From positions 1 through 51,980 of IMG/VR virus record IMGVR_UViG_3300037755_000190: a stretch of DNA of 51,980 nucleotides; one strand, written 5' to 3'. Below are positions 97 to 40,967 of this stretch, in pieces. Every line of letters begins with the position of its first letter. The first letter of the stretch is position 1. Under the pieces are notes generated by a model, which saw nothing but the letters and a program-made list of their open reading frames with translations, did no database searches and was not told where the DNA came from. This stretch comes from a virus. Lineage: Duplodnaviria > Caudoviricetes. The position numbers were made by a program, and so were the translations under genes.

Positions 97-98
97 TC

Positions 99-1383: not shown

Positions 1384-1552
1384 TAAATCCCACTTCAAGC
1401 TTGAGTACGTTGGTATCAAAAGTCGGGGTAGGCAAGCCTGGGTGTTGTGGATCAGAGACGAGACGACTCTTGTCTGGAAAGAGGTTCCCTACGATCTGTA
1501 TATGAAGGACTTATTTGATCTAGCTACTATTTGCATGCGAGAGAGTGGTTGA
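1364..1552 (+). CDS. hypothetical protein
   Basis: 62-aa ORF with GGAGGAG SD, overlapping both neighbours. Confidence 0.65.
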   Translation: MANENSNKSHFKLEYVGIKSRGRQAWVLWIRDETTLVWKEVPYDLYMKDLFDLATICMRESG

Positions 1553-2662: not shown

Positions 2663-2820
2663 TAGACCCAGACGAGACTAGCCTCGAACGAGCCGAGCAG
2701 CTATTAGAGACTTACTATCTAGAACAATTGATTGAGTTGTCTAACTTAACAGAGGCAGAGGCGTTAGCTATCCTCATTGATAGTGGCGACTTTACCTTGC
2801 CCGAGGTACTACCGCTATGA
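2659..2820 (+). CDS. small acidic hypothetical protein
   Basis: TTG start overlaps the upstream TGA, with AAGGA SD. Confidence 0.55.
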   Translation: MIDPDETSLERAEQLLETYYLEQLIELSNLTEAEALAILIDSGDFTLPEVLPL

Positions 2821-2960
2821 CTATCTATCTTATTCGGGACACCACTTATCACGTTGCCGAAGGGTACATGACCACTTACGAAGCGGCAAGACAATGGATC
2901 AAAGATAACAAAGAGCCGTGGACTTATGAAGTTATCGCAGTGGATGAATTGTCGTCATAG
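2817..2960 (+). CDS. 47-aa hypothetical protein (not in ORF track)
   Basis: ATGA overlap with the previous stop, GAGG SD; MTIYLIRDTTYHVAEGY...DELSS*. Confidence 0.6.
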   Translation: MTIYLIRDTTYHVAEGYMTTYEAARQWIKDNKEPWTYEVIAVDELSS

Positions 2961-2962
2961 TC

Positions 2963-3148
2963 ATGGTTGATCCGGAAGACAAGTACAAAAGACGTAGGCG
3001 GCGGCAACGCAACCTTATCGCTAGGGATCTCTTAACCGATCGGAGGTGGAAAGGACGAATTGAGTTATCAAAGAAAGATCGCATTAAGAAACCGTTAATA
3101 GAGATAAGCGATGATTTACGCCGTGACGAAGATGACGATGCTGGGTGA
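2963..3148 (+). CDS. small basic hypothetical protein
   Basis: 61-aa Arg/Lys-rich ORF packed into the operon. Confidence 0.6.
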   Translation: MVDPEDKYKRRRRRQRNLIARDLLTDRRWKGRIELSKKDRIKKPLIEISDDLRRDEDDDAG

Positions 3149-3311
3149 CGAATTGGTGGGTTTGTTCTCTGACGTCGAGGAGGCAGATAGTTATATTGAA
3201 GGTGTTTCTCTTAGTAACGAGGATGAACAGCGCTACGCTGTACGTGGTTGGGTAGTAAACTGCCCAGAATTAAACAGTGATGATGACGAGGACGAAGACT
3301 ATGACGACTAA
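3111..3311 (+). CDS. small acidic hypothetical protein
   Basis: 66-aa ORF overlapping its neighbours. Confidence 0.55.
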   Translation: MIYAVTKMTMLGDELVGLFSDVEEADSYIEGVSLSNEDEQRYAVRGWVVNCPELNSDDDEDEDYDD

Positions 3312-3651
3312 AAAGATCGCTGGTGGATCGCCCGCCGCTACTTACCTGTTCTTTAAGCTACAAGAAGAGCTAGGGGAGGTAACACAGGCTTTGAGTAAAT
3401 TCCTCATCCAAGTGGCCTTTCATCCTAACGACCCTGAAGAACAGGAAGAAGCACGCAAACGTCTCTCTGAAGAAATTGCTGATGTAATGGCTGTCTATGG
3501 TTTCATTGAGAAGTTGGGTTACATCAATGAAGAGGCGTTAGAAAAGAAGTACGCAGCCCGAGTAGACATTCTGGAAAAGAAGTTAGATAAGATCGCGAAG
3601 GAGTACACGGATAACAACGATACTGACGGACGGAAAACAAGTAGCGAGTGA
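3301..3651 (+). CDS. MazG-like nucleotide pyrophosphohydrolase
   Basis: KLQEELGEV...LSEEIADV is the EEXXE..EXXD all-alpha NTP-PPase signature. GAGG SD precedes ATG 3301. Confidence 0.75.
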   Translation: MTTKKIAGGSPAATYLFFKLQEELGEVTQALSKFLIQVAFHPNDPEEQEEARKRLSEEIADVMAVYGFIEKLGYINEEALEKKYAARVDILEKKLDKIAKEYTDNNDTDGRKTSSE

Positions 3652-4117
3652 CAGCCAGACATCTATTGGTAGTGAACGTTGCCCTGGAGAATGGTCGAAG
3701 GTGATAGTCGAAGGAGACCGTCTCTTTGCTTTCTCTGGGGCTACTTGTATGTTTGCACCGGCGATCAAATGGTACAAGAGTGGACTAGCAGCAGATCGGC
3801 CTAAGGTGGATGGCGACGAGTACAACCATACGCTTTGGGTGTTCGATCCAGACAGAGGCGCGCAGTGTTTCAACAATACCCATCAGAATCCCTATCCGGA
3901 AGTAGCTCATTTTCCTGCTGCAATGGGGAGTGGCGCCAAGTTTGCACTAGGGGCTTTCCACGCCGGAGCGTCCTTAACAGAGGCTGTCCAAATAGCCATA
4001 GCCCTCGACGTATTTAGTGGTGGCCCTGTAAAGGTAGTTGACATCCCACAAAAGACATTACCAATAGTTAAACAAACGCTGTGGGAGAGAATCAGCTATG
4101 TTGTCTGGGGACACTAG
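3611..4117 (+). CDS. Ntn-hydrolase (HslV/proteasome-beta-like) peptidase, probable ATA start
   Basis: Extending the ORF upstream of GTG 3701 gives (M)TTILTDGKQVASDSQ, the Thr1 Ntn signature; also AMGSGAKFALGA and A..LD..SGG. AAGGAG SD (3598-3603) lies 7 nt before ATA 3611, and there is an in-frame stop at 3584. Confidence 0.8.
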   Translation: MTTILTDGKQVASDSQTSIGSERCPGEWSKVIVEGDRLFAFSGATCMFAPAIKWYKSGLAADRPKVDGDEYNHTLWVFDPDRGAQCFNNTHQNPYPEVAHFPAAMGSGAKFALGAFHAGASLTEAVQIAIALDVFSGGPVKVVDIPQKTLPIVKQTLWERISYVVWGH

Positions 4118-4910
4118 AGTACGGGGTGAGTTTGGATGGAAATCGCTCTCTGAGGAGTACGGGAACCTCCACGCACCTACTAAGACAGGCAGGCGATACA
4201 CCTTTGGCCTAGCTAAGGGCTCTCATAGTAAGAAAACGTGGGATATCATAGCTTCCCGCCCGCACCTCTGGCCCTTGGTATCTGGTGAGGTGACTTATGA
4301 TCTTCGGGAGGGTGACGTTGTCCCCGCTAACAAGTCTGACTGTGGCTACTCTCCTGAGGGCTGGCTACACGGATACTTAAAGCGTGAGGGCTATTCAGGG
4401 GGCGTCTATACTCTTTATAAACAGTTCTACCGATGGACAGGACGCCTCCACCAGTTGTCTATTGATAAGTCGGTTGGATCAGACAAGACCGAATACAGGT
4501 TCCCTGATTTTACCTATCAACAGTGGCCTTACGAACTGGGGAAAACCTACGAAGGCGCTAAGTACGTAGGGTCTTTTATTCAGGGCTTTATGGACGCAGG
4601 GACATCCTTCGCGCAAGTTGCTTTCAACACCTCAGAGGCCGCTTGGTGGTTTTACGGCATGTGCCCTTTCGCAGGATACATAGCCTCCGGAGTTGTCCAC
4701 GAGACAAGAGTGAAAACACAGGCTACTCGCACGAAAGTAGGAGCCGCTGAGTTTCACACTGTCTACAAATTTTACTGTGCAAAGGGAAGCGATCACGCAG
4801 GGTTTAGGGTGCTCCAGATCGATCCTGTGGAGGGGCAGGGGTTGTATGTAGAGCGCGGCGAATTTCCCCAGCCTGCTTGCCTTGAGGGTGGTATACAAGC
4901 CCTTTTTTAG
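4098..4910 (+). CDS. free-standing intein-derived protein (Hint + degenerate LAGLIDADG)
   Basis: Block A-like MLSGDTRV..GWKSL, block B-like IIASRPHLWPL, DLREGDVV, LAGLIDADG-like WLHGYLKREG and FIQGFMDAG, and block F/G-like FRVLQIDP...LEGGIQ. Own GGGAG SD; in-frame stop at 4065. Confidence 0.7.
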   Translation: MLSGDTRVRGEFGWKSLSEEYGNLHAPTKTGRRYTFGLAKGSHSKKTWDIIASRPHLWPLVSGEVTYDLREGDVVPANKSDCGYSPEGWLHGYLKREGYSGGVYTLYKQFYRWTGRLHQLSIDKSVGSDKTEYRFPDFTYQQWPYELGKTYEGAKYVGSFIQGFMDAGTSFAQVAFNTSEAAWWFYGMCPFAGYIASGVVHETRVKTQATRTKVGAAEFHTVYKFYCAKGSDHAGFRVLQIDPVEGQGLYVERGEFPQPACLEGGIQALF

Positions 4911-4989
4911 TGTGAATACCTTAAATAGTTATGGTCAACGAAGCCCCGGAGTGGTACGCCAAAAAGGTTTATCGCAAAGGGGCTTTTTC

Positions 4990-5301
4990 ATGGCTAGGGC
5001 AGAATTACTTGTAGGCGTATCTGTCTGTTTCACCATCGTTTTCGGCGTTTTTGTAGCTTTACTGGTGCTTTACGTCCTGCGATTACGACGAGATATATCG
5101 CGATTGTTGATAACCCAAACGATCTTGAAAGCGCTTTACGATGACGATACACCTATTCCACAATTACCATATACATGGAGGGTTCCACCTGTTGGAGTGG
5201 AGGCTTCTCCTGGCTTCAAAAGTGTGGTCTTACCGTATCAAGGTCGCTCCGGAGGTGTGGTGGCCGATCTCAGAGGGACTGGCAGGGCCATGGGGAGTTG
5301 A
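4990..5301 (+). CDS. putative membrane protein
   Basis: N-terminal hydrophobic helix. It overlaps 5141..5503 in another frame, so its extent is uncertain. Confidence 0.45.
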   Translation: MARAELLVGVSVCFTIVFGVFVALLVLYVLRLRRDISRLLITQTILKALYDDDTPIPQLPYTWRVPPVGVEASPGFKSVVLPYQGRSGGVVADLRGTGRAMGS

Positions 5302-5503
5302 TGGGCAAGGTGAAACTTGGGCGGTTTTCGATGGGTGCTCTTATCGGCTAACGCCTATGCACAAGACAAAGGAATGGCCTAAAGGGGGATACGATGACTA
5401 CGAATCAAGAAACGATCGAAGATTCTCCCGTCTTCCGAGTAACATCGCAGACGACCCATCGATTAGTTTTCGAAAGAGCCACCAGCCAGGGTATCAAACT
5501 TGA
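5141..5503 (+). CDS. hypothetical protein
   Basis: 120-aa Trp-rich ORF with large overlaps on both sides. Confidence 0.35.
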   Translation: MTIHLFHNYHIHGGFHLLEWRLLLASKVWSYRIKVAPEVWWPISEGLAGPWGVDGQGETWAVFDGCSYRLTPMHKTKEWPKGGYDDYESRNDRRFSRLPSNIADDPSISFRKSHQPGYQT

Positions 5504-5669
5504 GTATATGTTGTGTCTTCACTGTGGTGTCACCAGTAGGCAAAAGCCGGTCGGACGCTTATCTTGCACTAACTGCGAGAGGGTATACCCCAGCAAGGCA
5601 GACATAGAGTGGTTTAACAAGGGGCGAGCGGAGCCAGCGGACCCTAACGACATAAGGGTTGCTCCATGA
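5394..5669 (+). CDS. CxxC...CxxC zinc-ribbon protein
   Basis: CLHC and CTNC motifs; AGGGGG SD. Confidence 0.65.
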   Translation: MTTNQETIEDSPVFRVTSQTTHRLVFERATSQGIKLEYMLCLHCGVTSRQKPVGRLSCTNCERVYPSKADIEWFNKGRAEPADPNDIRVAP

Positions 5670-6130
5670 CCTGTTGTAAATGCACTCCGGGAGATGTCTC
5701 CCCTTGCGTGCCCCTGCTGCAACACGCGGATAAATGTACGTGTGCTGCCTGTATGTCCTTCAACAAAGCGGTGCGGGATTTCATAGAGAAAGGCAATTTA
5801 AGGGATGCTATCTCCGCGATGTTTGCCAACCTTATTGATAGAGAGGTGCTCGCCCGCATACGCTTGGAGATGCGTCAACAAGAAGAGTTGAGCCCAGAAC
5901 GGTTTAATGTGATCTTAGACGACTCTATAAGAGGTGTAATTATAGGGATTACTGCGGCTCTAAATAATCTGATTGGAGGCTTTGTAAGCGACCCAATTAC
6001 ACGTCTAAGGCTCCTTGAGGATACCCAGGACGCTTTACTAGCCGCTCTGCAAACGTCTCCAAAAGAGCTTATAGAAGTGATGACTGTTAGTAGGTACGAT
6101 CCTCTTGACAGCAAGCCGACACTTCAGTAG
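5666..6130 (+). CDS. hypothetical protein with Cys-rich N-terminus
   Basis: ATGA overlap; 154 aa. Confidence 0.65.
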   Translation: MTCCKCTPGDVSPCVPLLQHADKCTCAACMSFNKAVRDFIEKGNLRDAISAMFANLIDREVLARIRLEMRQQEELSPERFNVILDDSIRGVIIGITAALNNLIGGFVSDPITRLRLLEDTQDALLAALQTSPKELIEVMTVSRYDPLDSKPTLQ

Positions 6131-6165
6131 ACACACAGCTTCTCTTTGCAGGTTAGGAACAGACC

Positions 6166-6234
6166 ATGTGGTTTTTTATCCTAGTTGCGTTGTGTCTCCT
6201 TCCCGTCGCCTATTCGGTGGCCAAGGACTTCTGA
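6166..6234 (+). CDS. 22-aa hydrophobic peptide
   Basis: AGGA SD; MWFFILVALCLLPVAYSVAKDF*. Confidence 0.45.
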   Translation: MWFFILVALCLLPVAYSVAKDF

Positions 6235-6323
6235 AAATCTCTGTCTACTGTTAACTGTTTATCAACCCATCCTAGCTATCCTGTCTTTGTAAGTACAGCG
6301 TACAACCCTAGAGAGTAGCGAGT

Positions 6324-6623
6324 ATGAAGAAGATCGAAGGCTTGGACTTAACGGGTATCTTTGACGAGGCGGAGAACGAAACCCTTGCTGAGAAGAAGCT
6401 TGGGGTGAAGAAGATCGTCTCTGGGATCATGATAAACCTCCAGGGCTGGCGGCGGGAAAGAGAGCAAGGCAAGACAGCCTGGGAGAAGTCCGACAAAAAG
6501 CTGGGGGATAAGATCGACAAAGCAGTTGCCAAGCTGGAACAGATCAAAGCAGGTAACTGGGATATCCTTATTGACGAAAACGACAAGAAGCAAGGCGCTA
6601 CCGAGACCGCCGACGCAGACTGA
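6324..6623 (+). CDS. coiled-coil hypothetical protein
   Basis: 99-aa charged helical ORF. Confidence 0.7.
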   Translation: MKKIEGLDLTGIFDEAENETLAEKKLGVKKIVSGIMINLQGWRREREQGKTAWEKSDKKLGDKIDKAVAKLEQIKAGNWDILIDENDKKQGATETADAD

Positions 6624-6677
6624 GCGAGCGGTTGGGGAAGTCCCGTAAAGTGTTGAGCCTGATCGCACCAATTCTTT

Positions 6678-7013
6678 ATGAGGGCTTCCCCAGTGGCACA
6701 CTTCGATGATACCGCTGTCCTAGCTTTACTGGCTTTCTTGCTTATCTATGTCTTAATCTTATGTGGAGAGATCGAAGTGGCTCGTCCTTTATCACATCGA
6801 ATCGTTGACGGTCTTCGTGATCTTGGCTTGTGGTTTCAGGAGAAGTGGGAGATCATTTCACCAGCTAAGTGTTGCAAGAATCCTCATCTAGTCGATATCA
6901 AGGACGGGGCGGTATGTCTTAACTGCGGTCTCCGGGATGATGATAAGTTGGACCATCGAAGAGTTGCACACTACCGTTTCATTAATCGACTTAAACGACT
7001 TACGCACTCGTAG
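6678..7013 (+). CDS. membrane-anchored protein with C-terminal Cys motifs
   Basis: N-terminal TM segment; CC and CLNC motifs. Confidence 0.6.
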   Translation: MRASPVAHFDDTAVLALLAFLLIYVLILCGEIEVARPLSHRIVDGLRDLGLWFQEKWEIISPAKCCKNPHLVDIKDGAVCLNCGLRDDDKLDHRRVAHYRFINRLKRLTHS

Positions 7014-7116
7014 CTTAATACAGGGAGGTGTGCCCCTCTCTGCCCTCCGTAAGAGGACGATAAAGCAGATGTGTCGCTAGGGCCGAAAGATGCAGGTTTG
7101 AGCCCTGCCGAGTGCT
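7004..7116 (+). ncRNA. tRNA-like RNA with expanded D-loop and irregular anticodon arm
   Basis: Perfect 7-bp acceptor GCACTCG/CGAGTGC, then TA, D-stem GCTT/AAGC and T-arm GCAGG-TTTGAGC-CCTGC. The D-loop is 46 nt and holds two hairpins. No encoded CCA. Confidence 0.6.
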
Positions 7117-7152
7117 ACCCATAGTAGCCGTTAGTGCTACCCATAATGCCGT
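7111..7152 (+). repeat. tandem direct repeat duplicating the 3' end of the tRNA-like element
   Basis: AGTGCTACCCATA at 7111-7123 and 7133-7145, each followed by a short spacer and GCCGT. Confidence 0.7.
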
Positions 7153-7202
7153 GTATCGGTGAATAGAAGATGTGTCATATGTTAACCAAGGGAGAAGTTC
7201 AA

Positions 7203-7403
7203 ATGAAGAAAGCCCACGAAGAGCAGCCGCCGGCGGCTGAAGAGCAAAGTCACGCCAAAGGGGACGAACAGCCCCGCGATGTGTCTCTTGCCCCTACGGA
7301 CGACCTCCCCAATCTCGTGACCGGCGAGTCGGAAGCGACCGAAGAGACTGTCCAGGTAGCTTCTGGCGAAACCACTACGGAAGAACAGGTCACGACAGCG
7401 TAA
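7203..7403 (+). CDS. acidic low-complexity hypothetical protein
   Basis: GGGAG SD before ATG 7203; rich in E/T/P. Confidence 0.6.
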   Translation: MKKAHEEQPPAAEEQSHAKGDEQPRDVSLAPTDDLPNLVTGESEATEETVQVASGETTTEEQVTTA

Positions 7404-7463
7404 GCTCGGACCCGCAAGAAACCAAGCACAGAAACCACTGACCACCCCTTAGGGCTTACTCAG

Positions 7464-7844
7464 ATGCAAGAGCTTGAAAACCATTTGGGTAAGACCCTTC
7501 GGGACTCTGAGACAGACACCGAGCTTGTTGAACTACACCCTACAGCACAGGATTGGAAGGCGGCTTTCTACTCTGCTCACGCACTATCCGCTACATTGCT
7601 TAAGCGAGAGAGACAAAGAGGAGAGTCGCACTTGCGTCTTTGGAATATCTGTTGGCTGAGTGGCGGATTATTAGGCTGGGGGCTTGGCACCAACATGACT
7701 TATCTTGCCCCTTCTTACAACGTTTACTGTCCTGCTTTTTTTACACTTCTAATAGCTTTCTTAATAGTATGGGATATGCAAGCTAGCCGCAAGGCTTTAA
7801 TACTTAAGGGACCACAACCCAAGAAAGAGGAGATTGGCGGGTGA
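7464..7844 (+). CDS. putative membrane protein (2 TM)
   Basis: 126 aa with two hydrophobic segments. Confidence 0.6.
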   Translation: MQELENHLGKTLRDSETDTELVELHPTAQDWKAAFYSAHALSATLLKRERQRGESHLRLWNICWLSGGLLGWGLGTNMTYLAPSYNVYCPAFFTLLIAFLIVWDMQASRKALILKGPQPKKEEIGG

Positions 7845-7942
7845 GTGTGTATATTGATCTGGGCTATGGTGTTTCTATCTTCTTTGTCTTAGCCGGGATT
7901 GGCGTGTTCTTGTGGGGTGTTGGGTACTTGATGCGATCTTGA
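7841..7942 (+). CDS. 33-aa single-TM peptide
   Basis: GTGA overlap, GAGGAG SD; MSVYIDLGYGVSIFFVLAGIGVFLWGVGYLMRS*. Confidence 0.55.
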   Translation: MSVYIDLGYGVSIFFVLAGIGVFLWGVGYLMRS

Positions 7943-7954
7943 TGAGGGACAGCG

Positions 7955-8290
7955 ATGGTTTCAGAATTAGCAGGTATGGTAGCGGTCATCGAACGTAGGG
8001 CCGCTAGGCAGGTCCAGACAACCCCTAATCGTCAAGAGCGATGGGAACAGCGCAACGAGGCTATCCAGGCTGCACTAGCCCTAGGACTGCCCTATAGGGT
8101 CACGCCGCTAGCGGTCATAGTAGGACAATCCCCAAAGCGCGCTCCAAAGCCCGCCCCTACTACTCCTACTGTCGTTACGAAGCTCCATAAGCGCAAAGTC
8201 CTACTGGTTAATCCTCCATCCCTGCAACGATCTGTCTTTGGTGCTGTCCCGAGGGTGCAGAGGGCTTCTAAGGCAGACATAGAATGGTGA
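7955..8290 (+). CDS. basic Pro-rich hypothetical protein
   Basis: GAGGG SD; 111 aa. Confidence 0.6.
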   Translation: MVSELAGMVAVIERRAARQVQTTPNRQERWEQRNEAIQAALALGLPYRVTPLAVIVGQSPKRAPKPAPTTPTVVTKLHKRKVLLVNPPSLQRSVFGAVPRVQRASKADIEW

Positions 8291-8553
8291 GGTTCCGCGA
8301 ACATAGAGGGCAGCTTGAAGACGCTCTAAAGACCGTTCACGAGATCTCCACCAAAGCAGAGCTGGCGCAGCACATACGTAACTACCTATCCAGATCACCA
8401 CAGTTCAGGCTTACGGACGATGAGTTGATTATAGAGCCCTATGTGCTTGAAGAGGACACTCGTTGTGGCTGGAAAGAGACGTGGATTGTGTATCGAGACA
8501 GCGGAGCGCTAGGCTGGGGTGTGTTTGGCTTCACTGATGGACCGCTAATATGA
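8284..8553 (+). CDS. hypothetical phage protein
   Basis: 89 aa (M.RFREHRG.LED...D.RCGW.ETWIV...GVFGFTDGP), overlapping its neighbours. Confidence 0.7.
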   Translation: MVRFREHRGQLEDALKTVHEISTKAELAQHIRNYLSRSPQFRLTDDELIIEPYVLEEDTRCGWKETWIVYRDSGALGWGVFGFTDGPLI

Positions 8554-8663
8554 CTTGTTCCGACGCAGCAGTGCTCGTTGAAGCCATTAAAAGTCTTTCT
8601 GGTGCTATTATGGCCGTTGGGATTGTCTGGGCTATCGCTTGGTGTGTGGTTAAGACATGGTAG
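8550..8663 (+). CDS. 37-aa single-TM peptide
   Basis: ATGA overlap with the upstream stop; MTCSDAAVLVEAIKSLSGAIMAVGIVWAIAWCVVKTW*. Confidence 0.5.
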   Translation: MTCSDAAVLVEAIKSLSGAIMAVGIVWAIAWCVVKTW

Positions 8664-8758
8664 ATTGGGACACCGTTATAGCGCTTCTCAACACGCCGGT
8701 AGCGGCCTTCTTGGGAGCCTTTCTAGGCGGTCTAATTGGAGCGTATTTGTTTCTATGA
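8657..8758 (+). CDS. 33-aa single-TM peptide
   Basis: Overlaps the previous stop; MVDWDTVIALLNTPVAAFLGAFLGGLIGAYLFL*. Confidence 0.5.
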   Translation: MVDWDTVIALLNTPVAAFLGAFLGGLIGAYLFL

Positions 8759-8856
8759 CAGTAATGGAGCTATTTACCACCTGCCCCCCGATAGGCTTAC
8801 TGACAGTGGCGTTGTGTGCCTTTGCTATGGGCTTGGGGATCGGTAGATTTCTATAG
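8755..8856 (+). CDS. 33-aa single-TM peptide
   Basis: ATGA overlap, GGAG SD; MTVMELFTTCPPIGLLTVALCAFAMGLGIGRFL*. Confidence 0.5.
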   Translation: MTVMELFTTCPPIGLLTVALCAFAMGLGIGRFL

Positions 8857-8931
8857 ACTGGGGTAGCTCAGTGGTAGAGCAAGCGGCGTATAACCGTTAG
8901 GTCGGGGGTTCGATGCCCTCCCTCAGTACCA
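8857..8931 (+). tRNA. tRNA-Ile (anticodon TAT), atypical G33
   Basis: Acceptor ACTGGGG/CCTCAGT, D-arm GCTC-AGTGGTA-GAGC, anticodon arm AGCGG-CGTATAA-CCGTT, T-arm GGGGG-TTCGATG-CCCTC, discriminator A plus CCA. Confidence 0.85.
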
Positions 8932-8934
8932 AAA

Positions 8935-9022
8935 GCTCGCGTGGCGGAATAGGTAGACGCGAGGGGCTTAAAACCCCTTATTCCTAGTGATTGTGAGGGT
9001 TCGAATCCCTTCGTGAGCACCA
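8935..9022 (+). tRNA. tRNA-Leu (anticodon TAA)
   Basis: Acceptor GCTCGCG/CGTGAGC, anticodon arm AGGGG-CTTAAAA-CCCCT, long variable arm, T-arm GAGGG-TTCGAAT-CCCTT, A plus CCA. Confidence 0.92.
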
Positions 9023-9069
9023 GCGCCTTCGGCGCAATCGGCCTAACGGCCTCACCAACAGGAAAGACA

Positions 9070-9240
9070 ATGACGAAAGCTACAAAGACCGCCTCAGAAA
9101 TCCTTCTAAGGACGCTTGACAGATGGGGAGACATGGGGACGGACAACATACGAGATGAGATCGAGAAGGCCGCTAAGTTGGCTAAGGAAATGGAGGAAAG
9201 CCTAGAGAAGGACGAAGGGCTGGCTGTACCCAAAGCCTAG
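9070..9240 (+). CDS. small hypothetical protein
   Basis: AGGA SD before ATG 9070. Confidence 0.55.
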   Translation: MTKATKTASEILLRTLDRWGDMGTDNIRDEIEKAAKLAKEMEESLEKDEGLAVPKA

Positions 9241-9243
9241 TGC

Positions 9244-9505
9244 TTGTCACACTGGGTTGTCACACTACCAGAAATATGTTATCAATCAGCCCTCCCTAGT
9301 GAATAGCTAGACGAGGGTCTTTTCATGTCTATGTCGTTGAAATACCACGGATTTCCAGCCGAACCGATCTGAGCACGCCAGTGCGAATTCCGAGCCGAAG
9401 GCGAGGATATCTCCCCATGGGAGACAAGGTTCTATCGGAATTTCCTACGGTGCTTCAAGGGCTTAGATTCCCGCTTGCAACGCCTTGGCACAAGGATGTC
9501 ACAAT
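9244..9505. other. putative attP region
   Basis: Arm-type-like direct repeats TTGTCACACT x2 (9244-9253, 9257-9266), with TTGGCACAA and ATGTCACAAT (9485-9505) at the other end. Two inverted IHF-like sites (9331-9343, 9453-9465) and a central imperfect dyad TCTCC-CCATG-GGAGA. Lies immediately upstream of the integrase. Confidence 0.6.
9289..9323 (+). terminator. putative intrinsic terminator of the tRNA operon
   Basis: CCCTC-C-CTAG...CTAG-AC-GAGGG followed by TCTTTT. Confidence 0.5.
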
Positions 9506-10568
9506 GGCTACGTATCGCAAAAGAGGATCGACTTGGCAGGTTCAAATTAGGGTCAAGGGGCAATCGCCGCTTAGCCGTTCGTTCCCCACGAAAGCAGCCG
9601 GTCAAGCCTGGGCTGAGAGCGAGGAGAAAGCGTTGAAAGGGGGGACGATTAAAATTCCTCATGGCTATACCCTTGGTTGCCTATTGAGCGAATACCTAAC
9701 CGTCACTCAGTCTAGCACAGACAATGCCTTTATCAAAACGTTCATAAATAGGTGTCAGTTTTTAGATAAGCCACTCGCTAAGTTGATAGCTACGGACTTC
9801 TTAGCCTACAGAGACAGCCAACTTAAGACAGTAAAGAAAACTAGCTACAACAGGTCTATCAAGCCTATTATAGCAGCCTTTAGGTCAGCTATCGAGATGA
9901 AGCACTTTCCCGCCGATTGTGCAGATTGTCTCAAGGCCACAAAACTGAAAGCCAAGGCTACTAAGCGCAGAAGACGGTTCTGGGACCATGAAGAAAGAGC
10001 TTTTAGTACTGTCTGTAGCTGCCCTACTCTGGGGGCTGTGGTTGTGGTCCTTGTGGAAACAGCTATGCGGTCCGGTGAATTGTGGTTGGTAAAGAAACAG
10101 AACGTGAGGGACGGTATGATTTACATTCCAGAGGAAGACACAAAAACAAAAAGCCCCCGGACTATTGCGCTAAGTCCAAGGGCTCTTTCAGCGGTAGATA
10201 TTTTAATGGCACAAAGCGCTACCGAGAAACTGGTCTCACTAGGTGCTGGTGTCTTGAAGAAGAAGTTTAGAAAGGTGTGTCATCAGGCAGAGATAGTTAA
10301 TCTGCATATGCACGATCTGAGGCACGAAGCTTTGTCTAGGATGTCTGAGAAGGGCTTTGGTCCGGCTGAGATGATGTCTCAATCAGGTCATACACAACTC
10401 AATCAGCTAGGTGACTACATCCATGGCAACCCTCTGCTTATTCAGAAGAAGTTGCTAGCGATGTCACAGCTTGGAGGAAATCCTCTAGTGGAACCTGTGA
10501 TTTATTTAAGCCATCCCCGTAGTAGTACGAGTGTCCCGATGTTGTCGGAAGTCCAGCCCACTCCATAG
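9504..10568 (+). CDS. int: tyrosine integrase/recombinase
   Basis: AAGGA SD plus ATG 9504 (MATYRKRGSTWQVQIR). The catalytic set R (AMRSGEL), K (TKT), HxxR (HDLRH), H (SGH) and Y (DYIH) is intact. Confidence 0.93.
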   Translation: MATYRKRGSTWQVQIRVKGQSPLSRSFPTKAAGQAWAESEEKALKGGTIKIPHGYTLGCLLSEYLTVTQSSTDNAFIKTFINRCQFLDKPLAKLIATDFLAYRDSQLKTVKKTSYNRSIKPIIAAFRSAIEMKHFPADCADCLKATKLKAKATKRRRRFWDHEERAFSTVCSCPTLGAVVVVLVETAMRSGELWLVKKQNVRDGMIYIPEEDTKTKSPRTIALSPRALSAVDILMAQSATEKLVSLGAGVLKKKFRKVCHQAEIVNLHMHDLRHEALSRMSEKGFGPAEMMSQSGHTQLNQLGDYIHGNPLLIQKKLLAMSQLGGNPLVEPVIYLSHPRSSTSVPMLSEVQPTP

Positions 10569-34218: not shown

Positions 34219-34427
34219 AAATAATCTACTAAAGCACCTAGAGTAGCAGCGGCGGTAAGTAACCAGAGTAGATATGTTTTACCGTAGCGAGCTTCTGTTA
34301 CGAATTCATTTACGGCTTTCATCTCTGATCTTAGTAGCCGGATTTCTTCTTTGAGATCTTTTTGGCCTTCCCCGAGGTGGCGGACTTCGACTTTGAGCGC
34401 TTCGACTTCACGATCCAATGTCACCAA
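34194..34427 (-). CDS. coiled-coil protein with C-terminal TM (XhlA/holin-like)
   Basis: Heptad repeat followed by a hydrophobic helix. Confidence 0.65.
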   Translation of the reverse strand: MVTLDREVEALKVEVRHLGEGQKDLKEEIRLLRSEMKAVNEFVTEARYGKTYLLWLLTAAATLGALVDYLCRLIKLY

Positions 34428-34926
34428 TAACGCCTAGTCGATTAAAGTCATCTAGCACTCGGGAGTTGTCTGTTATCATACGTTCTGCTGCCCTTTTGAT
34501 ACTGTCTTTGCTTGGTCGTCCCACGGGATCTTTCACTTTGTCTGTCCAACCCTTTTCGAGGAGGTATTTGTTTGCTGCGAAGGATTCCTTGCGTCCTGCT
34601 CGGGCTTCGCTGATAATGTGGTAGAGGGCTTCGGATTCTAACTTCAGTTGCAACTCTTGACGCCACCGCTGGACGTAAGGTTGGAACCAGCTTAGATCAC
34701 AGAGTTGGACCCAGTGTTCCCAGTCCGCTAGGTACTTCTGTACAAAGCGGTATTCCTTGGGGTCGTCTTCAGCCATGTATAACTTGTAGAGGCTGGGGTA
34801 GCCCTTGTGGTCACCGTTCTTGAGTGTGTAGACGACAGTGGACTTATCCGCATAGGTGGTCTCATAGAACAGGCTCTTAGTGTACCGAGCACCGCTATCG
34901 TTCGTAAATTTGCTTATCGCTGGCAC
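34408..34926 (-). CDS. putative terminase small subunit
   Basis: First late gene; TKSLFYE, SLYKLYM..DPKEY.F, W..EL..KL.S.AL, A.KYLLEKGW and VGRPSK. Confidence 0.65.
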   Translation of the reverse strand: MPAISKFTNDSGARYTKSLFYETTYADKSTVVYTLKNGDHKGYPSLYKLYMAEDDPKEYRFVQKYLADWEHWVQLCDLSWFQPYVQRWRQELQLKLESEALYHIISEARAGRKESFAANKYLLEKGWTDKVKDPVGRPSKDSIKRAAERMITDNSRVLDDFNRLGVIGDIGS

Positions 34927-35001: not shown

Positions 35002-35244
35002 TAGCTAACTTCGTTAGCAAGACAGAATTTTCAGACAAATCAACACAGCGCTCCGCTTAAGGGAGACATAGAGAAATCTATGGACAGTGAAGGGGGTTCC
35101 GTGCTACCCTATTGATTCTCTAAGAGATACACTAAGAGTATTAACTTAGAGACTATACAGCAGTGTTCTATACCCTAAGGTACCCTAGGGTTATTCTGGG
35201 AGGGGTTCTCCAAGGGGAACCTAGGCGGCCGATGAGAGGGGACG

Positions 35245-35508
35245 ATGCCTGAAGATTTAGAAGAGGTTGATCTGACTAGCTTAGAGGTGGACGAGATATC
35301 TGTCTGCCTGGAGTACATACGACAAGTAATGCCCGGTAAGAAGTTCCTCTTGGTGGTCTATGAGCCGGACAGCAGACCGAAGAGTGGGCTTCTCGCTAGG
35401 TGTGGCTCTAATATGAAGTCAGAGGAGATCAAGCGAGCCCTCATCGAAGTGAGGCGTTACGTTAGCCGGGATAACATAAAGGTCTACGCTAAGACAAAGA
35501 GGAATTAG
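35245..35508 (+). CDS. hypothetical protein
   Basis: GAGGGG SD; 87 aa. Confidence 0.7.
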   Translation: MPEDLEEVDLTSLEVDEISVCLEYIRQVMPGKKFLLVVYEPDSRPKSGLLARCGSNMKSEEIKRALIEVRRYVSRDNIKVYAKTKRN

Positions 35509-35510
35509 TT

Positions 35511-35852
35511 ATGCAGATAGCTCGCTTTGCAGGGAATAAAGGGAAATGGCGTACCCTTGAGATATCTACCATCAAGTGTGGGCCGTTTGCCTTCGCGATA
35601 AGACCTTACGAGACAGCCATTAGTTGGCCACGTAGGTACAAGCAGGGTCAAGAGGAATGGGTTATTGTAGCGGCTTACGACACGGAGGAAGAAGCTAGGG
35701 CTGGCCATGCTGATTGGGTAAAGATCATGCTTAAAACACCACCAGACAAGCTAGTTGACTGCTGCAACTTTGCGATGATGGCGGCGAGGAGAGATAAGGG
35801 CTTGCTGTCTCTGTCGGACCTAGTAGCTGAAGCAAGAGAAGACATCAGCTAA
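35511..35852 (+). CDS. hypothetical phage protein
   Basis: GAGG SD; ISTI...PYETAI....W.IV..YDTEEEARAGHADWV. Confidence 0.75.
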   Translation: MQIARFAGNKGKWRTLEISTIKCGPFAFAIRPYETAISWPRRYKQGQEEWVIVAAYDTEEEARAGHADWVKIMLKTPPDKLVDCCNFAMMAARRDKGLLSLSDLVAEAREDIS

Positions 35853-36068
35853 AGAAACACCTAAAGGTGTAAAAGAGTAACCCCTTACTGCTAGAACTAG
35901 AGGTAGTTCTATGAGCGCCATGGGGAAGCACTAGGGCATTGTTGCAGTAAGGGGTTATAGGTTGCCAGTCGTACAGATGTAGATTACCGGGTAGGTGGTT
36001 GCTTAGCTCACAATCCAACACTATGGTCAGACAAAGAAGGATTGACTAACGGACCGGACCTACCCGGC
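35851..36068 (-). ncRNA. putative two-domain structured small RNA
   Basis: 10-bp stem 35987-35996/36058-36067 and 14-bp stem 35878-35891/35944-35957, each with internal hairpins. A promoter lies directly upstream and a hairpin plus U-tract at the 3' end. Confidence 0.6.
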
Positions 36069-36074
36069 AGTGAG

Positions 36075-36103
36075 AAACTATACCTTACTCAGAATCTCGT
36101 CAA
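36075..36103 (-). promoter_or_regulatory. sigma70-type promoter for the putative ncRNA
   Basis: (C)TTGACG-N17-TAGTTT; predicted +1 near 36068. Confidence 0.6.
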
Positions 36104-37312
36104 GCCCCTTCGGTCGAACAGGCTCAAACAACAGTTGTCTGCCCCCAAGACAGCCCTATGCCATCAGGAGCCCTCAGAGCGCCACACAGGCCAGTGATCG
36201 CTATAGGGCTTGTGGTTAGATACCCTAAGGTGCTAACACCCGTGTACGAGGCTCCTAGGGGCTTACAGGGGCTATACGCCTCCTTAGGGGTACGGCATAA
36301 TTTCTTGGAGTAAAATTCAAGGGGTGATTCAGGGGGAGGGAGGAGGCCCGGCCCCCCTTATACCCGGGGGGCGGCACTCTTGGCAGGAAGGTCAGCAACG
36401 TTTTACCCCACTAACCACTGGTCCAACGAGACATCCGACCACATACACGTCTAAGTCCTTGGCCACCTTAGTATATCTAACCGCAACCACTGCTCGGCTT
36501 CTCCCTCCAACTCTGACATCCGTTGCTCCCTTACCACATCCCTTGCTCTATGGACATTGATAGGCTACTGCTCCGCTTGCTGGCCCAGTCGTTCGAATGT
36601 ATATCTATCAGCAGCCAAGCATCTGGCCTCGTCGCTCACTCACGGCGCTGTAACTGATGCTAGCTAAGCGGGGGCTTGAGGAGCAGACAGAGAATAGGAT
36701 AGGTCTTCGGGCCTCGCTTATACTTTGTCTGCTTTGCTTTTGTCTGGCTCTGTTGGTCCACGATAGCTCTTGCCATAGTGTTAGGCCCTCACGGTCATAC
36801 ACAGCCCAATGGATGCTTAGTGATATATGATCGCTAAGCTGTGCTTGTTGATAGCCCCGCTCTTTCCCGCCATAAGTTGACCAAGCAACACCCAGCTCAT
36901 CGCTTCGCGTCGCCACCTAGACGCGCTGCGCGCGTCTAGCCAAATGCTTCGCATTCGGTACGTGGCTTCGCTTCGCTATGCAGTGCCCACCTCACCAGCC
37001 CTTGAATATATCTTCCTCGTGTCGTCCTATCGTACAAGTTACCTCTGTGCCTCCTCAAGGGGGACACTACGCGCGCAGTCACGTGTCCTAAGTACGCCTG
37101 CGTAGAGCGCTCAGACACCGAGTATACAAGCCCTAGTGTGCTTCTTGTGGTCGCACACTGCGGGTTCCGTGCATAGCGCTCTACTCCGGCTATGCTTTAC
37201 GAGCGCGTAGTGTCGCAGGCTTCGCCTGCCTTCGCCCCTTGACCAGACCCAGAGAACTTGTGGATCGGGGACGACTTCGTCATGAGACGGAGCGTAAAAA
37301 GGAGCTGTACAG

Positions 37313-37615
37313 ATGGCTAAATTCCTCATTTCGATCGTGGGTGGCCTGCGCCCTTTCGTTTTGGCTTCAGCATTCAGCCTCTTGGCCCTTCATCCGGGAA
37401 ACGCAAAGCCCAAGAGCCAGTGCAACGTGCTGACAGACAAGACCCAGTGCGAAGCGCTAAAGGGAGGCGAAATCAACCTGTGTCAATGGATCGACATGTC
37501 GAACAGCTACACAGTGAACGGGCCGCGCAAATCCTACTGCCGGCTGTCGGGCAAGAGCATAACGAAGGAGCAGTACGAAGCTCTGAAAACGGCTTCGACG
37601 CCCAAGGCCCAGTAA
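37313..37615 (+). CDS. secreted Cys-rich protein (moron-like)
   Basis: AAGGAG SD, signal-peptide-like N-terminus, four Cys (C..C..CQW..YCR), own terminator. Confidence 0.8.
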   Translation: MAKFLISIVGGLRPFVLASAFSLLALHPGNAKPKSQCNVLTDKTQCEALKGGEINLCQWIDMSNSYTVNGPRKSYCRLSGKSITKEQYEALKTASTPKAQ

Positions 37616-37647
37616 ATCGCTGGCTCGGTAAGCACTGAGAGGTACAG

Positions 37648-37678
37648 AGGGGTGTCCGAAAGGATGCCCCTTTTTTCT
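37648..37678 (+). terminator. intrinsic terminator
   Basis: GGGGTGTCC-GAAA-GGATGCCCC-TTTTTT. Confidence 0.9.
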
Positions 37679-37889
37679 TACTCGGTGGGGCTGCAATAAG
37701 CGGAGTTCGCTAGTCGCTCACTAGTGTCTCAGTCGAGTTCGCCTACGGCTCACATATTCTTTTCGTTCGCTGGATACCTCCAACGAACACTCGGGGCCAC
37801 AACCCTAGCGTGCCCCATCGCGCCCGCTCGCAATCCATTGGTGTACGAGACGGGACGCGACGGGCCACACTAGGGATGTGGGATCGAGA

Positions 37890-37918
37890 TTAACAACCCC
37901 TGCAACTTGGTGTACAAT
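37890..37918 (+). promoter_or_regulatory. putative sigma70 early promoter
   Basis: TTAACA-N17-TACAAT upstream of the early ORF string. Confidence 0.55.
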
Positions 37919-40511: not shown

Positions 40512-40967
40512 ATGGCACAACACTACACCGTGAATGATCAGGATACTGTGGCACAAATCGCTATCGCCTATGTCTCAAACCATACGGTTCAAATTGATGA
40601 TCTGCCTCGTCTGATGAGTAAAATTCGGCTTGGCTTGACGGACCACACAGACACAGACGAAGCGGCAGACGAGTTTGACACTACCCCTTATCCGCGTTCT
40701 TCCCCGCTAGGCTGGAAGGGTGTTAAGGAGCCTCGCAAGCTAACCAGCAAAGAGATAGAGCGCTCCATTACCCCAAACGAAATTATCTGCTTTGAGAACG
40801 ACCGTGGTTATAAGAGCATGAAAAGGGGACTCGCGACCCTAGGCTTGACGGTCGATGAATACCGGGCCAAGTGGGGTCTGCCGAGGGATTACCCCATGGT
40901 TGCCCCTAACTACGCCGCCGCTCGCTCTAATCTGGCTAAGGAGCTGGGGCTAGGTCAGAGGCGCTAA
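40512..40967 (+). CDS. mucR: MucR/Ros family regulator lacking most zinc ligands
   Basis: AQIAIAYVSNH.V..DDLP.L, SITP..IICFE, YRAKWGLPRDYPMVAPNYAAARS.LAKELGLG. Confidence 0.92.
   Translation: MAQHYTVNDQDTVAQIAIAYVSNHTVQIDDLPRLMSKIRLGLTDHTDTDEAADEFDTTPYPRSSPLGWKGVKEPRKLTSKEIERSITPNEIICFENDRGYKSMKRGLATLGLTVDEYRAKWGLPRDYPMVAPNYAAARSNLAKELGLGQRR

What the first reader, a model, noticed from the sequence alone, without database searches (positions are those of the whole stretch)
35851..36103. Promoter-to-terminator-delimited ~218-nt two-domain ncRNA with anti-SD-like loops
Seen (minus strand): TTGACG-N17-TAGTTT puts +1 at ~36068, the base adjoining a 10-bp closing stem. Domain 1 (81 nt) is a rod (CCGGGUAGGU/ACCUACCCGG, UUAGU/GCUAA, CAAUCC/GGAUUG). 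Domain 2 (80 nt) is a three-way junction closed by a 14-bp perfect stem, with hairpins AGUGCU-UCCCCAU-GGCGCU (G-U pairs valid only on this strand) and UAGAACUA-CCUC-UAGUUCUA. It ends in ACACC-UUUA-GGUGU-UUCUUU. No ORF of 60 aa or more covers it. Inference: an unannotated phage RNA. The C-rich loops (CCUC, UCCCCAU) resemble anti-SD seeds of alphaproteobacterial sRNAs, and the location next to the packaging genes and probable terminus also allows a packaging or lysogeny role.
Basis: partly seen in the sequence, partly recalled or inferred. Interest (0 to 1): 0.7.

Follow-up and report, generated by a model that had tools for sequence, protein, structure and literature searches.

The report
Orphan structured small-RNA candidate in phage
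A roughly 215-base stretch of a temperate phage genome folds into two very stable domains and looks like a small non-coding RNA gene, but no relative carries it, so it stays a plausible, unproven candidate.

Summary
The fold is far better than chance (MFE -79.7 kcal/mol, z -5.75, 0 of 200 shuffles as good). The plus strand folds about as well (-80.9, z -4.68).

Minus-strand signals are weak. There are 6 G-U pairs against 3, and U-tracts follow the stems only on that strand.

The window is a complete temperate podophage, probably of an alphaproteobacterium. The element lies in a 2-3 kb poorly coding control region full of hairpins. It meets tail to tail a conserved 113-aa plus-strand gene.

I found no homologue: Rfam, GenBank phages, plasmids, IMG/VR, a covariance model over 32 sources (31 fetched loci plus the window). 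The nearest genome (TerL 77%) lacks it, so covariation cannot be tested. No RNA run was listed.

The anti-SD idea fails the cuckoo-family definition and a within-phage target test. Nothing supports a packaging role.

Best reading, about 0.4: an orphan, moron-like small-RNA unit. Rivals are the 3' end of a longer minus transcript, a plus-strand 3' UTR, or DNA-level inverted repeats.

The parts
36075..36103 (-). Promoter-like site. TTGACG (36103-36098), 17 nt, TAGTTT (36080-36075). Alternative -10 hexamer TATAGT (36082-36077) with a 15-nt spacer. Predicted +1 at about 36071-36068.
   Evidence: Read. The consensus scan did not call it. Its class occurs 58 times in the window. The 5/6 + 5/6 variant is one of 5 sites.
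35985..36069 (-). Domain 1: an 85-nt rod. A 12-bp closing stem (10 perfect pairs plus 2), then 3-bp, 5-bp and 6-bp helices and a weakly paired apex.
   Evidence: Energy -37.1 kcal/mol, z -4.93, 27 Watson-Crick and 4 G-U pairs. The plus strand gives -33.2 kcal/mol with 1 G-U pair. Perfect arms are listed as I14.
35958..35984 (-). 27-nt unpaired linker. It contains TACATCTGTACGACTGG, a motif that recurs at 36601-36585 on the same strand.
   Evidence: unpaired in the centroid structure; linker z -0.64; 2 matches where 0.46 are expected, and 6 of 100 shuffles reach 2.
35878..35957 (-). Domain 2: an 80-nt three-way junction. It has a 14-bp perfect closing stem, a 6-bp hairpin with loop UCCCCAU (two G-U pairs), and an 8-bp perfect hairpin with loop CCUC that stacks directly on the closing stem.
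   Evidence: Energy -37.0 kcal/mol, z -7.61. The plus strand gives -38.6 kcal/mol but loses the 6-bp hairpin. Arms are listed as I2.
35851..35877 (-). 3' end. The U-rich CUCUUUU follows the Domain 2 stem directly. Then come the 5-bp hairpin ACACC-UUUA-GGUGU (35870-35857) and UUCUUU. This gives two possible termination points, for an RNA of about 197 or about 217 nt.
   Evidence: The terminator scan calls 35870-35857 on the minus strand. Hairpin energy -5.2 kcal/mol. On the plus strand the same stems are followed by A-rich sequence.
35511..35852 (+). Convergent neighbour: a 113-aa gene of unknown function. Its TAA stop (35850-35852) abuts the last U-tract of the element. An 87-aa ORF (35245-35508) precedes it.
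   Evidence: A homologue lies in the closest genome G001 (42% identity over 74 aa, E 4.5e-14). A second 113-aa homologue, P0003, is 58% identical. No Pfam or PHROG family matches.
36682..36745 (+). Plus-strand intrinsic terminator: a long hairpin with a UUCG loop, followed by UUUGCUUUUGUCU. It implies plus-strand transcription across or just beyond the element.
   Evidence: -48.8 kcal/mol, z -4.19. In 90-nt windows the plus strand reaches -43.4 against -19.3 on the minus.

Best explanation
The element is an orphan, moron-like small-RNA gene on the minus strand of a temperate podophage. Host RNA polymerase would start at about 36071-36068. It would end either at the U-tract after the Domain 2 stem (about 35872) or after the small hairpin (about 35851). 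The product is a stable RNA of about 200-217 nt. Its 5' end is locked in a 12-bp stem, and two compact domains are joined by a 27-nt single-stranded linker.

The unit runs tail to tail into the conserved ORF87-ORF113 operon. No plus-strand terminator is seen before 36682-36745. The most likely action is therefore as a regulatory RNA that is fully complementary to read-through transcripts of that operon. This is cis-antisense control in the manner of lambda OOP or P22 sar. Trans base-pairing through the linker or the Domain 1 apex is a secondary possibility.

Shown: the fold, the absence of coding potential, the convergent conserved gene, and the strand-specific U-tracts. Inferred: transcription itself, both RNA ends, and every step of the mechanism.
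For: - Fold far beyond chance. Whole element z -5.75 with 0 of 200 shuffles as good. Each domain taken alone gives 0 of 300.
- Minus-strand bias in the fold. Domain 1 is 3.9 kcal/mol more stable on the minus strand, and G-U pairs number 6 against 3. The 6-bp UCCCCAU hairpin forms only on the minus strand.
- U-rich tracts follow the Domain 2 stem and the small hairpin only on the minus strand. The terminator scan calls 35870-35857 on that strand.
- A -35 hexamer TTGACG sits at the right distance, with either TAGTTT or TATAGT as the -10 hexamer. The structure begins within 1-3 nt of the predicted +1. Other likely promoters of this phage group are sigma-70-like. These are TTGCAA-17-TATACT before the late operon, TTGACA-16-TATAAT in the relative, and TTAACA-17-TACAAT at 37890-37918 (read).
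- Not coding. The longest ORF is 58 aa, has no SD upstream, and has no homologue among 5.8 billion proteins.
- Present here but absent from the closest genome at the same junction. That pattern is expected of a self-contained inserted unit.
- In that relative the syntenic junction carries a hairpin that is 8.6 kcal/mol more stable on the same strand and has a U-rich tail. Minus-strand transcription ending at this junction may therefore be a shared feature.
- Phage small RNAs convergent with a regulatory gene are a known kind (OOP and sar; passages of PMC12197685).
Against: - There is no expression evidence of any kind.
- No homologue was found, so no covariation is available.
- The plus strand folds as well overall (-80.9 against -79.7 kcal/mol).
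- Most stems are perfect Watson-Crick inverted repeats. These fit a DNA-level element or a very young structure equally well.
The better variant has a 15-nt spacer.
- The terminator hairpin is weak (-5.2 kcal/mol).
- The element is only one of several strong structures. Of the 18 best 90-nt structure clusters in the genome, 6 lie between 35101 and 37890. Being structured is therefore not special in this region.
- Other promoter-like sites lie upstream on the same strand, at 37036-37028 and 36482-36466. The RNA could be longer than proposed.
- Overlap with the ORF113 coding sequence is at most a few nucleotides.
Confidence: 0.4

Rival explanations
1. There is no separate gene. Domains 1 and 2 and the hairpin are the structured 3' end and terminator cluster of a longer minus-strand transcript of 0.6-1.2 kb. 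That transcript would start at an upstream promoter-like site conserved in the relative. One candidate is TTGAGG-18-TACGAT at about 37060-37028. The other is the box GGTTAGATATACTAAGG at 36482-36466.
For: - Three nucleotide blocks upstream of the element are conserved in the nearest genome: 37250-37202, 37076-37008 and 36491-36466, at 82-96% identity.
- Structures biased to the minus strand occur along the path, at 36960-36871 and 36430-36341.
- The relative has a hairpin with a U-rich tail on the same strand at the syntenic convergent junction, but no Domain 1 or 2.
- The local promoter is not above chance.
Against: - No terminator-free path is demonstrated.
- None of the upstream sites is a strong sigma-70 match when read.
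- Domain 1 begins exactly where the TTGACG promoter would place +1.
- The 102-aa minus-strand ORF on the path (36916-36608) is not conserved in the relative, so the long unit would itself be non-coding and unexplained.
Confidence: 0.2
2. The plus strand is the functional strand. The element is part of a long structured 3' UTR of the ORF87-ORF113 mRNA, which ends at the strong plus-strand terminator at 36682-36745. It would act as an exonuclease barrier or as a pause or insulator element.
For: - The plus strand folds as well as the minus: -80.9 kcal/mol, z -4.68. Domain 2 is slightly better on the plus strand, -38.6 against -37.0.
- No U-tract terminator follows the ORF113 stop on the plus strand until the UUCG-loop hairpin with its U-tract at 36682-36745.
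- ORF113 is a real, conserved gene.
Against: - Domain 1 is weaker on the plus strand (-33.2 against -37.1 kcal/mol) and the three-way junction is lost there.
- All U-tracts beside the stems are on the minus strand.
- An 830-nt 3' UTR would be unusual.
- The plus-strand terminator could instead serve a separate plus-strand unit that starts beyond the element, for example at the box at 36214-36230.
Confidence: 0.15
3. It is a DNA-level element. The inverted repeats would work as hairpins or cruciforms, or as protein-binding palindromes, at the replication origin, the packaging-recognition site or the genome-end region. That region lies between the terminase module and the early genes. The model is the hairpin intermediates of T7-type concatemer processing.
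For: - The three longest stems (14, 10 and 8 bp) are perfect Watson-Crick palindromes, and both strands fold about equally.
- The TerL is of the T7/SIO1 type. In such phages the genome ends lie beyond the terminase gene (recalled knowledge).
- The surrounding 2 kb is packed with other inverted repeats. One is a 210-260-nt rod conserved in the relative.
Against: - The extra G-U-only helices and the U-tracts are strand-specific features with no role in duplex DNA.
- The element is absent from the nearest relative, whereas an origin or packaging site should be conserved in place.
- It is 0.9-1.1 kb from the putative small terminase gene, with two genes in between.
- No repeats of an iteron type include it.
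Confidence: 0.15
4. It is a non-functional remnant. A recently acquired palindromic insertion, or the decaying piece of a mobile element, happens to sit between convergent units.
For: - It is a singleton with no homologue anywhere I searched.
- The perfect stems suggest youth.
- It lies in a rapidly diverging non-coding region where even the closest genome does not align.
Against: - Two adjacent, independently very stable domains, each 0 of 300 shuffles.
- A terminator-like hairpin and a -35 hexamer in register are more organisation than a remnant needs.
- There are no target-site duplications and no further copies in the genome.
Confidence: 0.1

Closest known systems
Lambda OOP RNA and P22 sar RNA (short cis-antisense RNAs of temperate phages)
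   Same: Each is a short promoter-to-terminator transcript in the control region of a temperate phage. Each converges on a small gene of the opposite strand and is non-coding. The function of OOP and sar is taken from passages of PMC12197685.
   Different: OOP is 77 nt (recalled) and overlaps the 3' part of the cII coding sequence. This element is about 215 nt and has two large folded domains. It overlaps the ORF113 coding sequence by at most a few nucleotides, so it can be antisense only to a 3' UTR or to read-through RNA. There is no sequence or Rfam relationship. The function of ORF113 is unknown.
Cuckoo / alpha-r14 / CcsR sRNAs of Alphaproteobacteria (anti-SD loop sRNAs)
   Same: The element has C-rich hairpin loops in a modular multi-hairpin RNA. 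The host is probably an alphaproteobacterium.
   Different: The family is defined by 2-4 adjacent simple hairpins, each with CCUCCUCCC in a loop of 9-27 nt (PMC4615179). Here the loops are CCUC (4 nt) and UCCCCAU (7 nt), set inside a three-way junction. The motif is absent from 36070-35851. No Rfam alpha-r family matches even at E up to 10.
Lambda pR'-tR' 6S transcript and HK022 put RNA (leader RNAs before late genes; recalled knowledge)
   Same: It is a structured RNA of about 200 nt between a promoter and a terminator. It lies upstream of the packaging and structural genes and on their strand.
   Different: A conserved opposite-strand operon (35245-35852) and a separate late promoter-like site (35001-34973) lie between the element and the late genes. 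No antiterminator gene is identified. The closest relative lacks the element.
phi29 prohead RNA (pRNA)
   Same: It is a two-domain phage RNA of about 170-220 nt encoded near the packaging genes and a probable genome end.
   Different: There is no match to any Rfam family, pRNA included. The phage packages with a terminase of the T7/SIO1 type, not the phi29 ATPase and terminal-protein system. I see no complementary pair of loops for ring formation by inspection.
Phage morons (self-contained promoter-gene-terminator inserts)
   Same: It is a compact unit with its own promoter-like and terminator-like signals. It is present in one phage and absent at the same junction in its closest relative. The window holds a second such unit: the 100-aa signal-peptide ORF at 37313-37615 with its own terminator.
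   Different: The cargo here would be an RNA, not a protein. Expression in the lysogen is untested.

Membership tests
Any curated RNA family (Rfam 15) | Covariance-model score at or above the family's gathering threshold | tested here: not met
   The whole window at gathering thresholds gives only 2 tRNA matches. For 35500-36500 at E up to 10, the only 2 hits are weak and lie outside the element: snoZ107_R87 at E 1.1 and PVT1_3 at E 9.3.
Cuckoo (alpha-r14 / CcsR) anti-SD sRNAs | 2-4 adjacent hairpins, each with CCUCCUCCC in a hairpin loop of 9-27 nt (PMC4615179, passages read) | tested here: not met
   The loops are CCUC (4 nt), UCCCCAU (7 nt) and a weakly paired Domain 1 apex. The motif is absent from the element. 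The one CCTCCTCCC nearby is at 36346-36338, outside it.
Anti-SD base-pairing sRNA (functional class) | Accessible C/U-rich seed with better-than-chance complementarity to ribosome-binding sites of target mRNAs | tested here: inconclusive
   Only phage targets could be tested, because the host is unknown. The best duplex of each unpaired segment with 140 heuristic translation-start regions was matched by many of 100 shuffles: 65 for the Domain 1 apex, 40 for the linker, 5 for the Domain 2 junction with loop 2, and 19 for loop 3. The best Domain 2 target is an artefactual start.
Intrinsically terminated sigma-70 transcription unit | -35 and -10 hexamers with a 16-18-nt spacer upstream | tested here: inconclusive
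   TTGACG-17-TAGTTT scores 5/6 + 3/6 and was not called by the scan. There are 58 sites of this class in the window. TTGACG-15-TATAGT scores 5/6 + 5/6 and is one of 5 sites, but has a short spacer.
Intrinsically terminated sigma-70 transcription unit | G+C-rich hairpin followed by a U-tract at the 3' end | tested here: met
   35870-35857 on the minus strand was called by the scan. It is weak, at -5.2 kcal/mol. A second U-tract, CUCUUUU, follows the 14-bp Domain 2 stem.
Conserved structured RNA (general criterion) | Homologues in relatives with compensatory base changes in the stems | not testable with these tools
   No homologue was found.
- blastn against phages and plasmids.
- Exact and loop-anchored patterns in IMG/VR.
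- Covariance model R1 over 30 sources totalling 240,988 bases (29 fetched loci plus the window), then over 2 more loci.
- The contig of the closer ORF113 homologue P0003 could not be fetched.
Cis-antisense RNA of the OOP or sar type | Transcribed convergently to, and overlapping, a target gene's transcript | tested here: inconclusive
   Convergence with the conserved ORF113 is shown. Overlap with the coding sequence is at most a few nucleotides. Overlap with the transcript depends on plus-strand read-through to the terminator at 36682-36745, which is inferred and not shown.
phi29-type pRNA | Rfam pRNA model match, a phi29-type packaging system, and inter-molecular loop-loop complementarity | tested here: not met
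   No Rfam match. The packaging enzyme is a TerL of PHROG 38 (E 2.8e-83). No complementary loop pair is seen in the fold, by inspection.

The most novel reading that the evidence does not exclude
The element is a cis-acting leader RNA that gates late gene expression. Transcription from 36103 would make a two-domain RNA that stays with RNA polymerase, as HK022 put does, or is acted on by a phage factor. Polymerase would then read through the tandem weak terminators at 35877-35851. It would run antisense across the ORF87-ORF113 operon, silencing it by collision and antisense pairing, and enter the packaging and structural operon at 34926. This would be a new, RNA-based early-to-late or lysogeny-to-lysis switch in a marine or sediment podophage lineage. 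My evidence excludes a packaging (pRNA-like) or anti-defence decoy role no better, and I rate those lower still.
Probability: 0.06. Interest if true: 0.7.

Novelty: new member of a known kind. Interest (0 to 1): 0.3.

Why it matters
Small RNAs of phages outside the enterobacterial models are almost unknown. Roseophage-like temperate podophages of environmental Alphaproteobacteria are one such group.

A verified, highly structured 215-nt RNA at the junction of two convergent units would give a handle on how these phages time or insulate transcription. It would sit between the late module and the early genes.

As it stands the element is a single-genome candidate. Its value is as a well-delimited target for a Northern blot or RNA-seq, if a host or lysogen is ever obtained.

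The wider observation may matter more. The whole 2-3 kb control region is built of strand-biased hairpins, and one of them is conserved with compensatory changes.

Tried and rejected
**Homologue searches, all empty**
- blastn (distant mode) of 35400-36500 against GenBank phages.
- blastn of the element against plasmids: one 27-nt hit at E 0.8, taken as chance.
- An exact 41-mer, the Domain 2 arms with a gap, and a loop-anchored pattern with free stems, each in IMG/VR: 0 matches each.
- Covariance model R1, built from the single sequence, over 30 sources and then 2 more: it found only itself and its own reverse strand.

**Relatives through TerL**
- 13 IMG/VR loci and 16 metagenome loci; the best is 77% identical.
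- The metagenome best hit L030 is the same genome as the IMG/VR record G001: 7,686 of 7,686 nt identical.
- No prophage relative in 185,579 species genomes.

**Relatives through ORF113**
- 5 IMG/VR loci and 1 distant MAG locus, none closer.
- A 17-mer conserved in the neighbouring rod fished 2 further IMG/VR contigs. They proved to be chance hits inside a coding region.

**Expression and variants**
- No RNA holder was listed. The only run listed is a DNA run that may be the source of the window.
- Laying its contigs showed one identical contig and no variants.

**Leads judged to be chance**
- The 13-mer ACGACTGGCAACC is shared with G001 but is not colinear there.
- Domain 1 apex against the ORF113 ribosome-binding site: 18 of 23 positions alike and the best of 140 targets, but 65 of 100 shuffles do as well.
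- Domain 1 apex against 36782-36768 (13 of 15 complementary). By my estimate a region of this size supplies a few such matches.

**Other readings set aside**
- Small-protein reading: the 58-aa ORF has no homologue.
- Ribozyme, tRNA-like, 6S, Y-RNA, retron and bridge-RNA readings: no Rfam or ARAGORN match, and no reverse transcriptase or recombinase next to the element.

**Calls that gave nothing**
- tblastx, attempted inside, returned nothing. It is not among the listed programs, so that blank means nothing.
Full report
**What the window is**

The window is one complete virus record of 51,980 bases. IMG/VR classes it as linear, and CheckV rates it 100% complete.
- The minus strand carries a structural and packaging module from 34926 down to 11052.
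  - TerL at 32641-34218 matches PHROG 38 (E 2.8e-83).
  - The 601-aa protein at 30836-32641 matches PHROG 332, described as head-tail adaptor.
  - A 172-aa protein of PHROG 8035 (function unknown) lies at 34408-34926.
- The plus strand carries replication and accessory genes from 37313 to the record's end (51980) and, on its other side, from base 1 to 10568; no terminal overlap joins the two ends.
  - These include DNA polymerase A, a primase-helicase and a tyrosine integrase.
  - Two tRNA genes are also there.
  - A Ros/MucR regulator is present (Pfam E 3.3e-32).
- The nearest named TerL relatives are phages of Rhodobacterales: Lentibacter, Celeribacter and Roseobacter SIO1, at 57-61% identity.

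The phage is therefore temperate, and its host is probably an alphaproteobacterium.

- Whole element, minus strand 36070-35851: MFE -79.7 kcal/mol, z -5.75, 0 of 200 dinucleotide shuffles as good. The centroid equals the MFE apart from a small linker hairpin.
- Domain 1 alone: z -4.93, 0 of 300 shuffles as good.
- Domain 2 alone: z -7.61, 0 of 300.
- Coding: the longest ORF across it is 58 aa with a GTG start inside Domain 1 and no SD. It has no homologue.

Three parts of the description are weaker than they look.
- The promoter TTGACG-17-TAGTTT has only 3 of 6 matches in its -10 hexamer and was not called by the consensus scan. The window holds 58 sites of that quality. The alternative TTGACG-15-TATAGT is rarer, at 5 sites, but has a 15-nt spacer.
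- The terminator hairpin is only -5.2 kcal/mol. A second U-tract, CUCUUUU, does follow the 14-bp Domain 2 stem directly.
- The plus strand folds equally well: -80.9 kcal/mol, z -4.68.

Strand bias comes down to a few items.
- G-U pairs number 6 on the minus strand and 3 on the plus.
- Domain 1 is 3.9 kcal/mol better on the minus strand.
- The UCCCCAU hairpin is lost on the plus strand.
- U-tracts follow the stems on the minus strand only.

**Surroundings**

The element is not directly upstream of the packaging genes.
- Between them lie two plus-strand ORFs of 87 aa (35245-35508) and 113 aa (35511-35852).
- The 113-aa protein is conserved. It is 42% identical over 74 aa to a protein of the closest genome (E 4.5e-14). 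It is 58% identical to a second 113-aa protein, P0003.
- Its TAA stop at 35850-35852 touches the last U-tract of the element, so the two units meet tail to tail.
- A late promoter-like site, TTGCAA-17-TATACT, sits at 35001-34973.
- On the plus strand I see no U-tract terminator after ORF113 until a long hairpin with a UUCG loop and a U-tract at 36682-36745. It folds to -48.8 kcal/mol with z -4.19 and is far weaker on the minus strand. Plus-strand transcription across or beside the element is therefore likely.

The whole stretch from 35100 to 37900 is poor in conserved ORFs and packed with strong hairpins. A genome-wide scan of 3,460 windows of 90 nt gave 18 structure clusters at z of -3.3 or lower. 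Six of them lie here, some biased to one strand and some to the other.

**Relatives**

TerL searches gave 13 IMG/VR loci and 16 metagenome loci.
- The closest is one 52-kb circular genome at 77% TerL identity. It appears twice, as G001 and as L030, and the two are identical over 7,686 nt.
- No prophage relative was found in species genomes.

Aligned against that genome, the control region keeps only three short nucleotide blocks: 37250-37202, 37076-37008 and 36491-36466. Nothing between 36465 and 34926 aligns apart from a 19-nt chance match.

Model R1, built from the element, found nothing but itself in 240,988 bases of 30 sources (29 fetched loci plus the window), or in 2 further loci. Pattern and blastn searches were also empty.

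One indirect point comes from the relative. The same convergent junction there carries a 66-nt hairpin with a U-rich tail. It is 8.6 kcal/mol more stable on the TerL-sense strand, -46.3 against -37.7 kcal/mol, with modest z of -2.05. This hints that minus-strand transcription ends at this junction in both phages.

**Function**

The anti-SD resemblance does not hold.
- The alphaproteobacterial cuckoo family is defined by CCUCCUCCC in hairpin loops of 9-27 nt (passages of PMC4615179). The loops here are a CCUC tetraloop and a 7-nt UCCCCAU.
- No Rfam alpha-r family matches.
- Duplex energies of the unpaired segments with 140 heuristic phage translation-start regions are no better than those of shuffled segments.
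  - The best hit of the Domain 1 apex is the ORF113 start region at -23.6 kcal/mol, but 65 of 100 shuffles do as well.
  - The one nominally low fraction, 5 of 100 for the Domain 2 junction with loop 2, rests on an artefactual start site.
- Host targets could not be examined.

A packaging role has no support. The phage has a normal terminase, nothing like pRNA matches, and the element is missing from the nearest relative.

**Best reading and rivals**

I think a self-contained, moron-like small-RNA unit on the minus strand is the most likely single explanation, at about 0.4. Its most plausible action is as an antisense partner of ORF87-ORF113 read-through transcripts, by analogy with OOP and sar (passages of PMC12197685).

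The rivals are:
- the 3' end of a longer minus-strand transcript that starts at conserved upstream sites (0.2);
- a plus-strand 3' UTR (0.15);
- DNA-level inverted repeats near the genome ends or the origin (0.15);
- a non-functional remnant (0.1).

**Novelty and score**

If real, this is a new and so far unique member of a known kind, the phage-encoded small RNAs. It is not a new kind of system.

With no expression data, no homologue and an ambiguous strand, it deserves modest interest.

The conserved rod at 37020-37275 shows compensatory changes against the relative and is, on present evidence, the better-supported structured element of the region. It is listed among the things noticed in passing.

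The supplements of the papers cited were not consulted.

Noticed in passing
window 37020-37275 (core nested inverted repeats 37043-37254), both strands: A rod of about 210-260 nt made of nested inverted repeats lies just upstream of the plus-strand ORF at 37313. It folds to -129.5 kcal/mol with z -5.78 on the minus strand, and to -129.2 with z -6.60 on the plus. Its outer arms are conserved in the closest genome. In a two-sequence alignment, 14 of 54 predicted pairs changed on both sides and still pair. This is better comparative support than the finding itself has, though it rests on only 2 sequences and the strand is undetermined.
   Followed up: partly
window 37797-37881, minus strand: A near-perfect hairpin of about 36 bp. 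It folds to -72.3 kcal/mol with z -7.08, and 0 of 200 shuffles do as well. In the 90-nt windows it is about 13 kcal/mol weaker on the plus strand, which means many G-U pairs. It lies just upstream of a plus-strand TTAACA-17-TACAAT promoter-like site at 37890-37918 (read).
   Followed up: partly
window 36682-36745, plus strand: A strong plus-strand intrinsic terminator: a long stem with a UUCG loop, then UUUGCUUUUGUCU. It folds to -48.8 kcal/mol with z -4.19. No conserved plus-strand gene ends near it, so the unit it terminates is unclear.
   Followed up: partly
window 36466-36482 (-), 36214-36230 (+), 35165-35181 (+), 36599-36617 (-, degenerate): A repeated box, GGTTAGATAYMCTAAGG. Two copies form an inverted pair 235 bp apart, and one lies 65 nt upstream of ORF87. 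The copy at 36491-36466 is 96% conserved in the closest genome. It is probably an operator or a promoter element of the control region.
   Followed up: partly
window 36296-36393, minus strand: A module conserved with the closest genome. It runs CTGACCTTCCTG, a G-rich hairpin, then CTGAATCACCCCTTGAATTTTACTCCAAGAAATTAT. It contains CCTCCTCCC at 36346-36338, and a perfect AAGGAGG follows about 55 nt downstream at 36285-36279. The true anti-SD-like motif of the region therefore lies here, outside the reported element. The G001 assembly junction falls inside the homologous G-rich hairpin.
   Followed up: no
window 37313-37615 (+) with terminator 37649-37676: A 100-aa ORF with a signal-peptide-like N-terminus, an AGGAG ribosome-binding site and a textbook terminator, GGGGUGUCC-GAAA-GGAUGCCCC-UUUUUU. 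It looks like a protein moron. It has no Pfam or PHROG match.
   Followed up: no
window 40512-40967 (+); 9381-10568 (+); 8857-9022 (+): A Ros/MucR-type regulator (Pfam E 3.3e-32). A tyrosine integrase (PHROG 1, E 5.2e-37) lies directly beside tRNA-Ile(TAT) and tRNA-Leu(TAA). These point to a temperate phage of an alphaproteobacterium. The attachment site may lie at the tRNA genes.
   Followed up: no
window 35245-35508 (+) and L024 4602-4877 (+): The 87-aa ORF before ORF113 and the 91-aa ORF after the ORF113 homologue in the relative look alike by eye in their middle parts. This suggests the same two small genes in swapped order. I did not test it with an alignment.
   Followed up: no
L030 4162-4189 (minus strand of the locus) and 3433-4160: In the relative, a perfect TTGACA-16-TATAAT promoter (12 of 12) drives the small-ORF operon through a structured non-coding leader of about 750 nt. 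The window has only 318 nt at the corresponding place.
   Followed up: no
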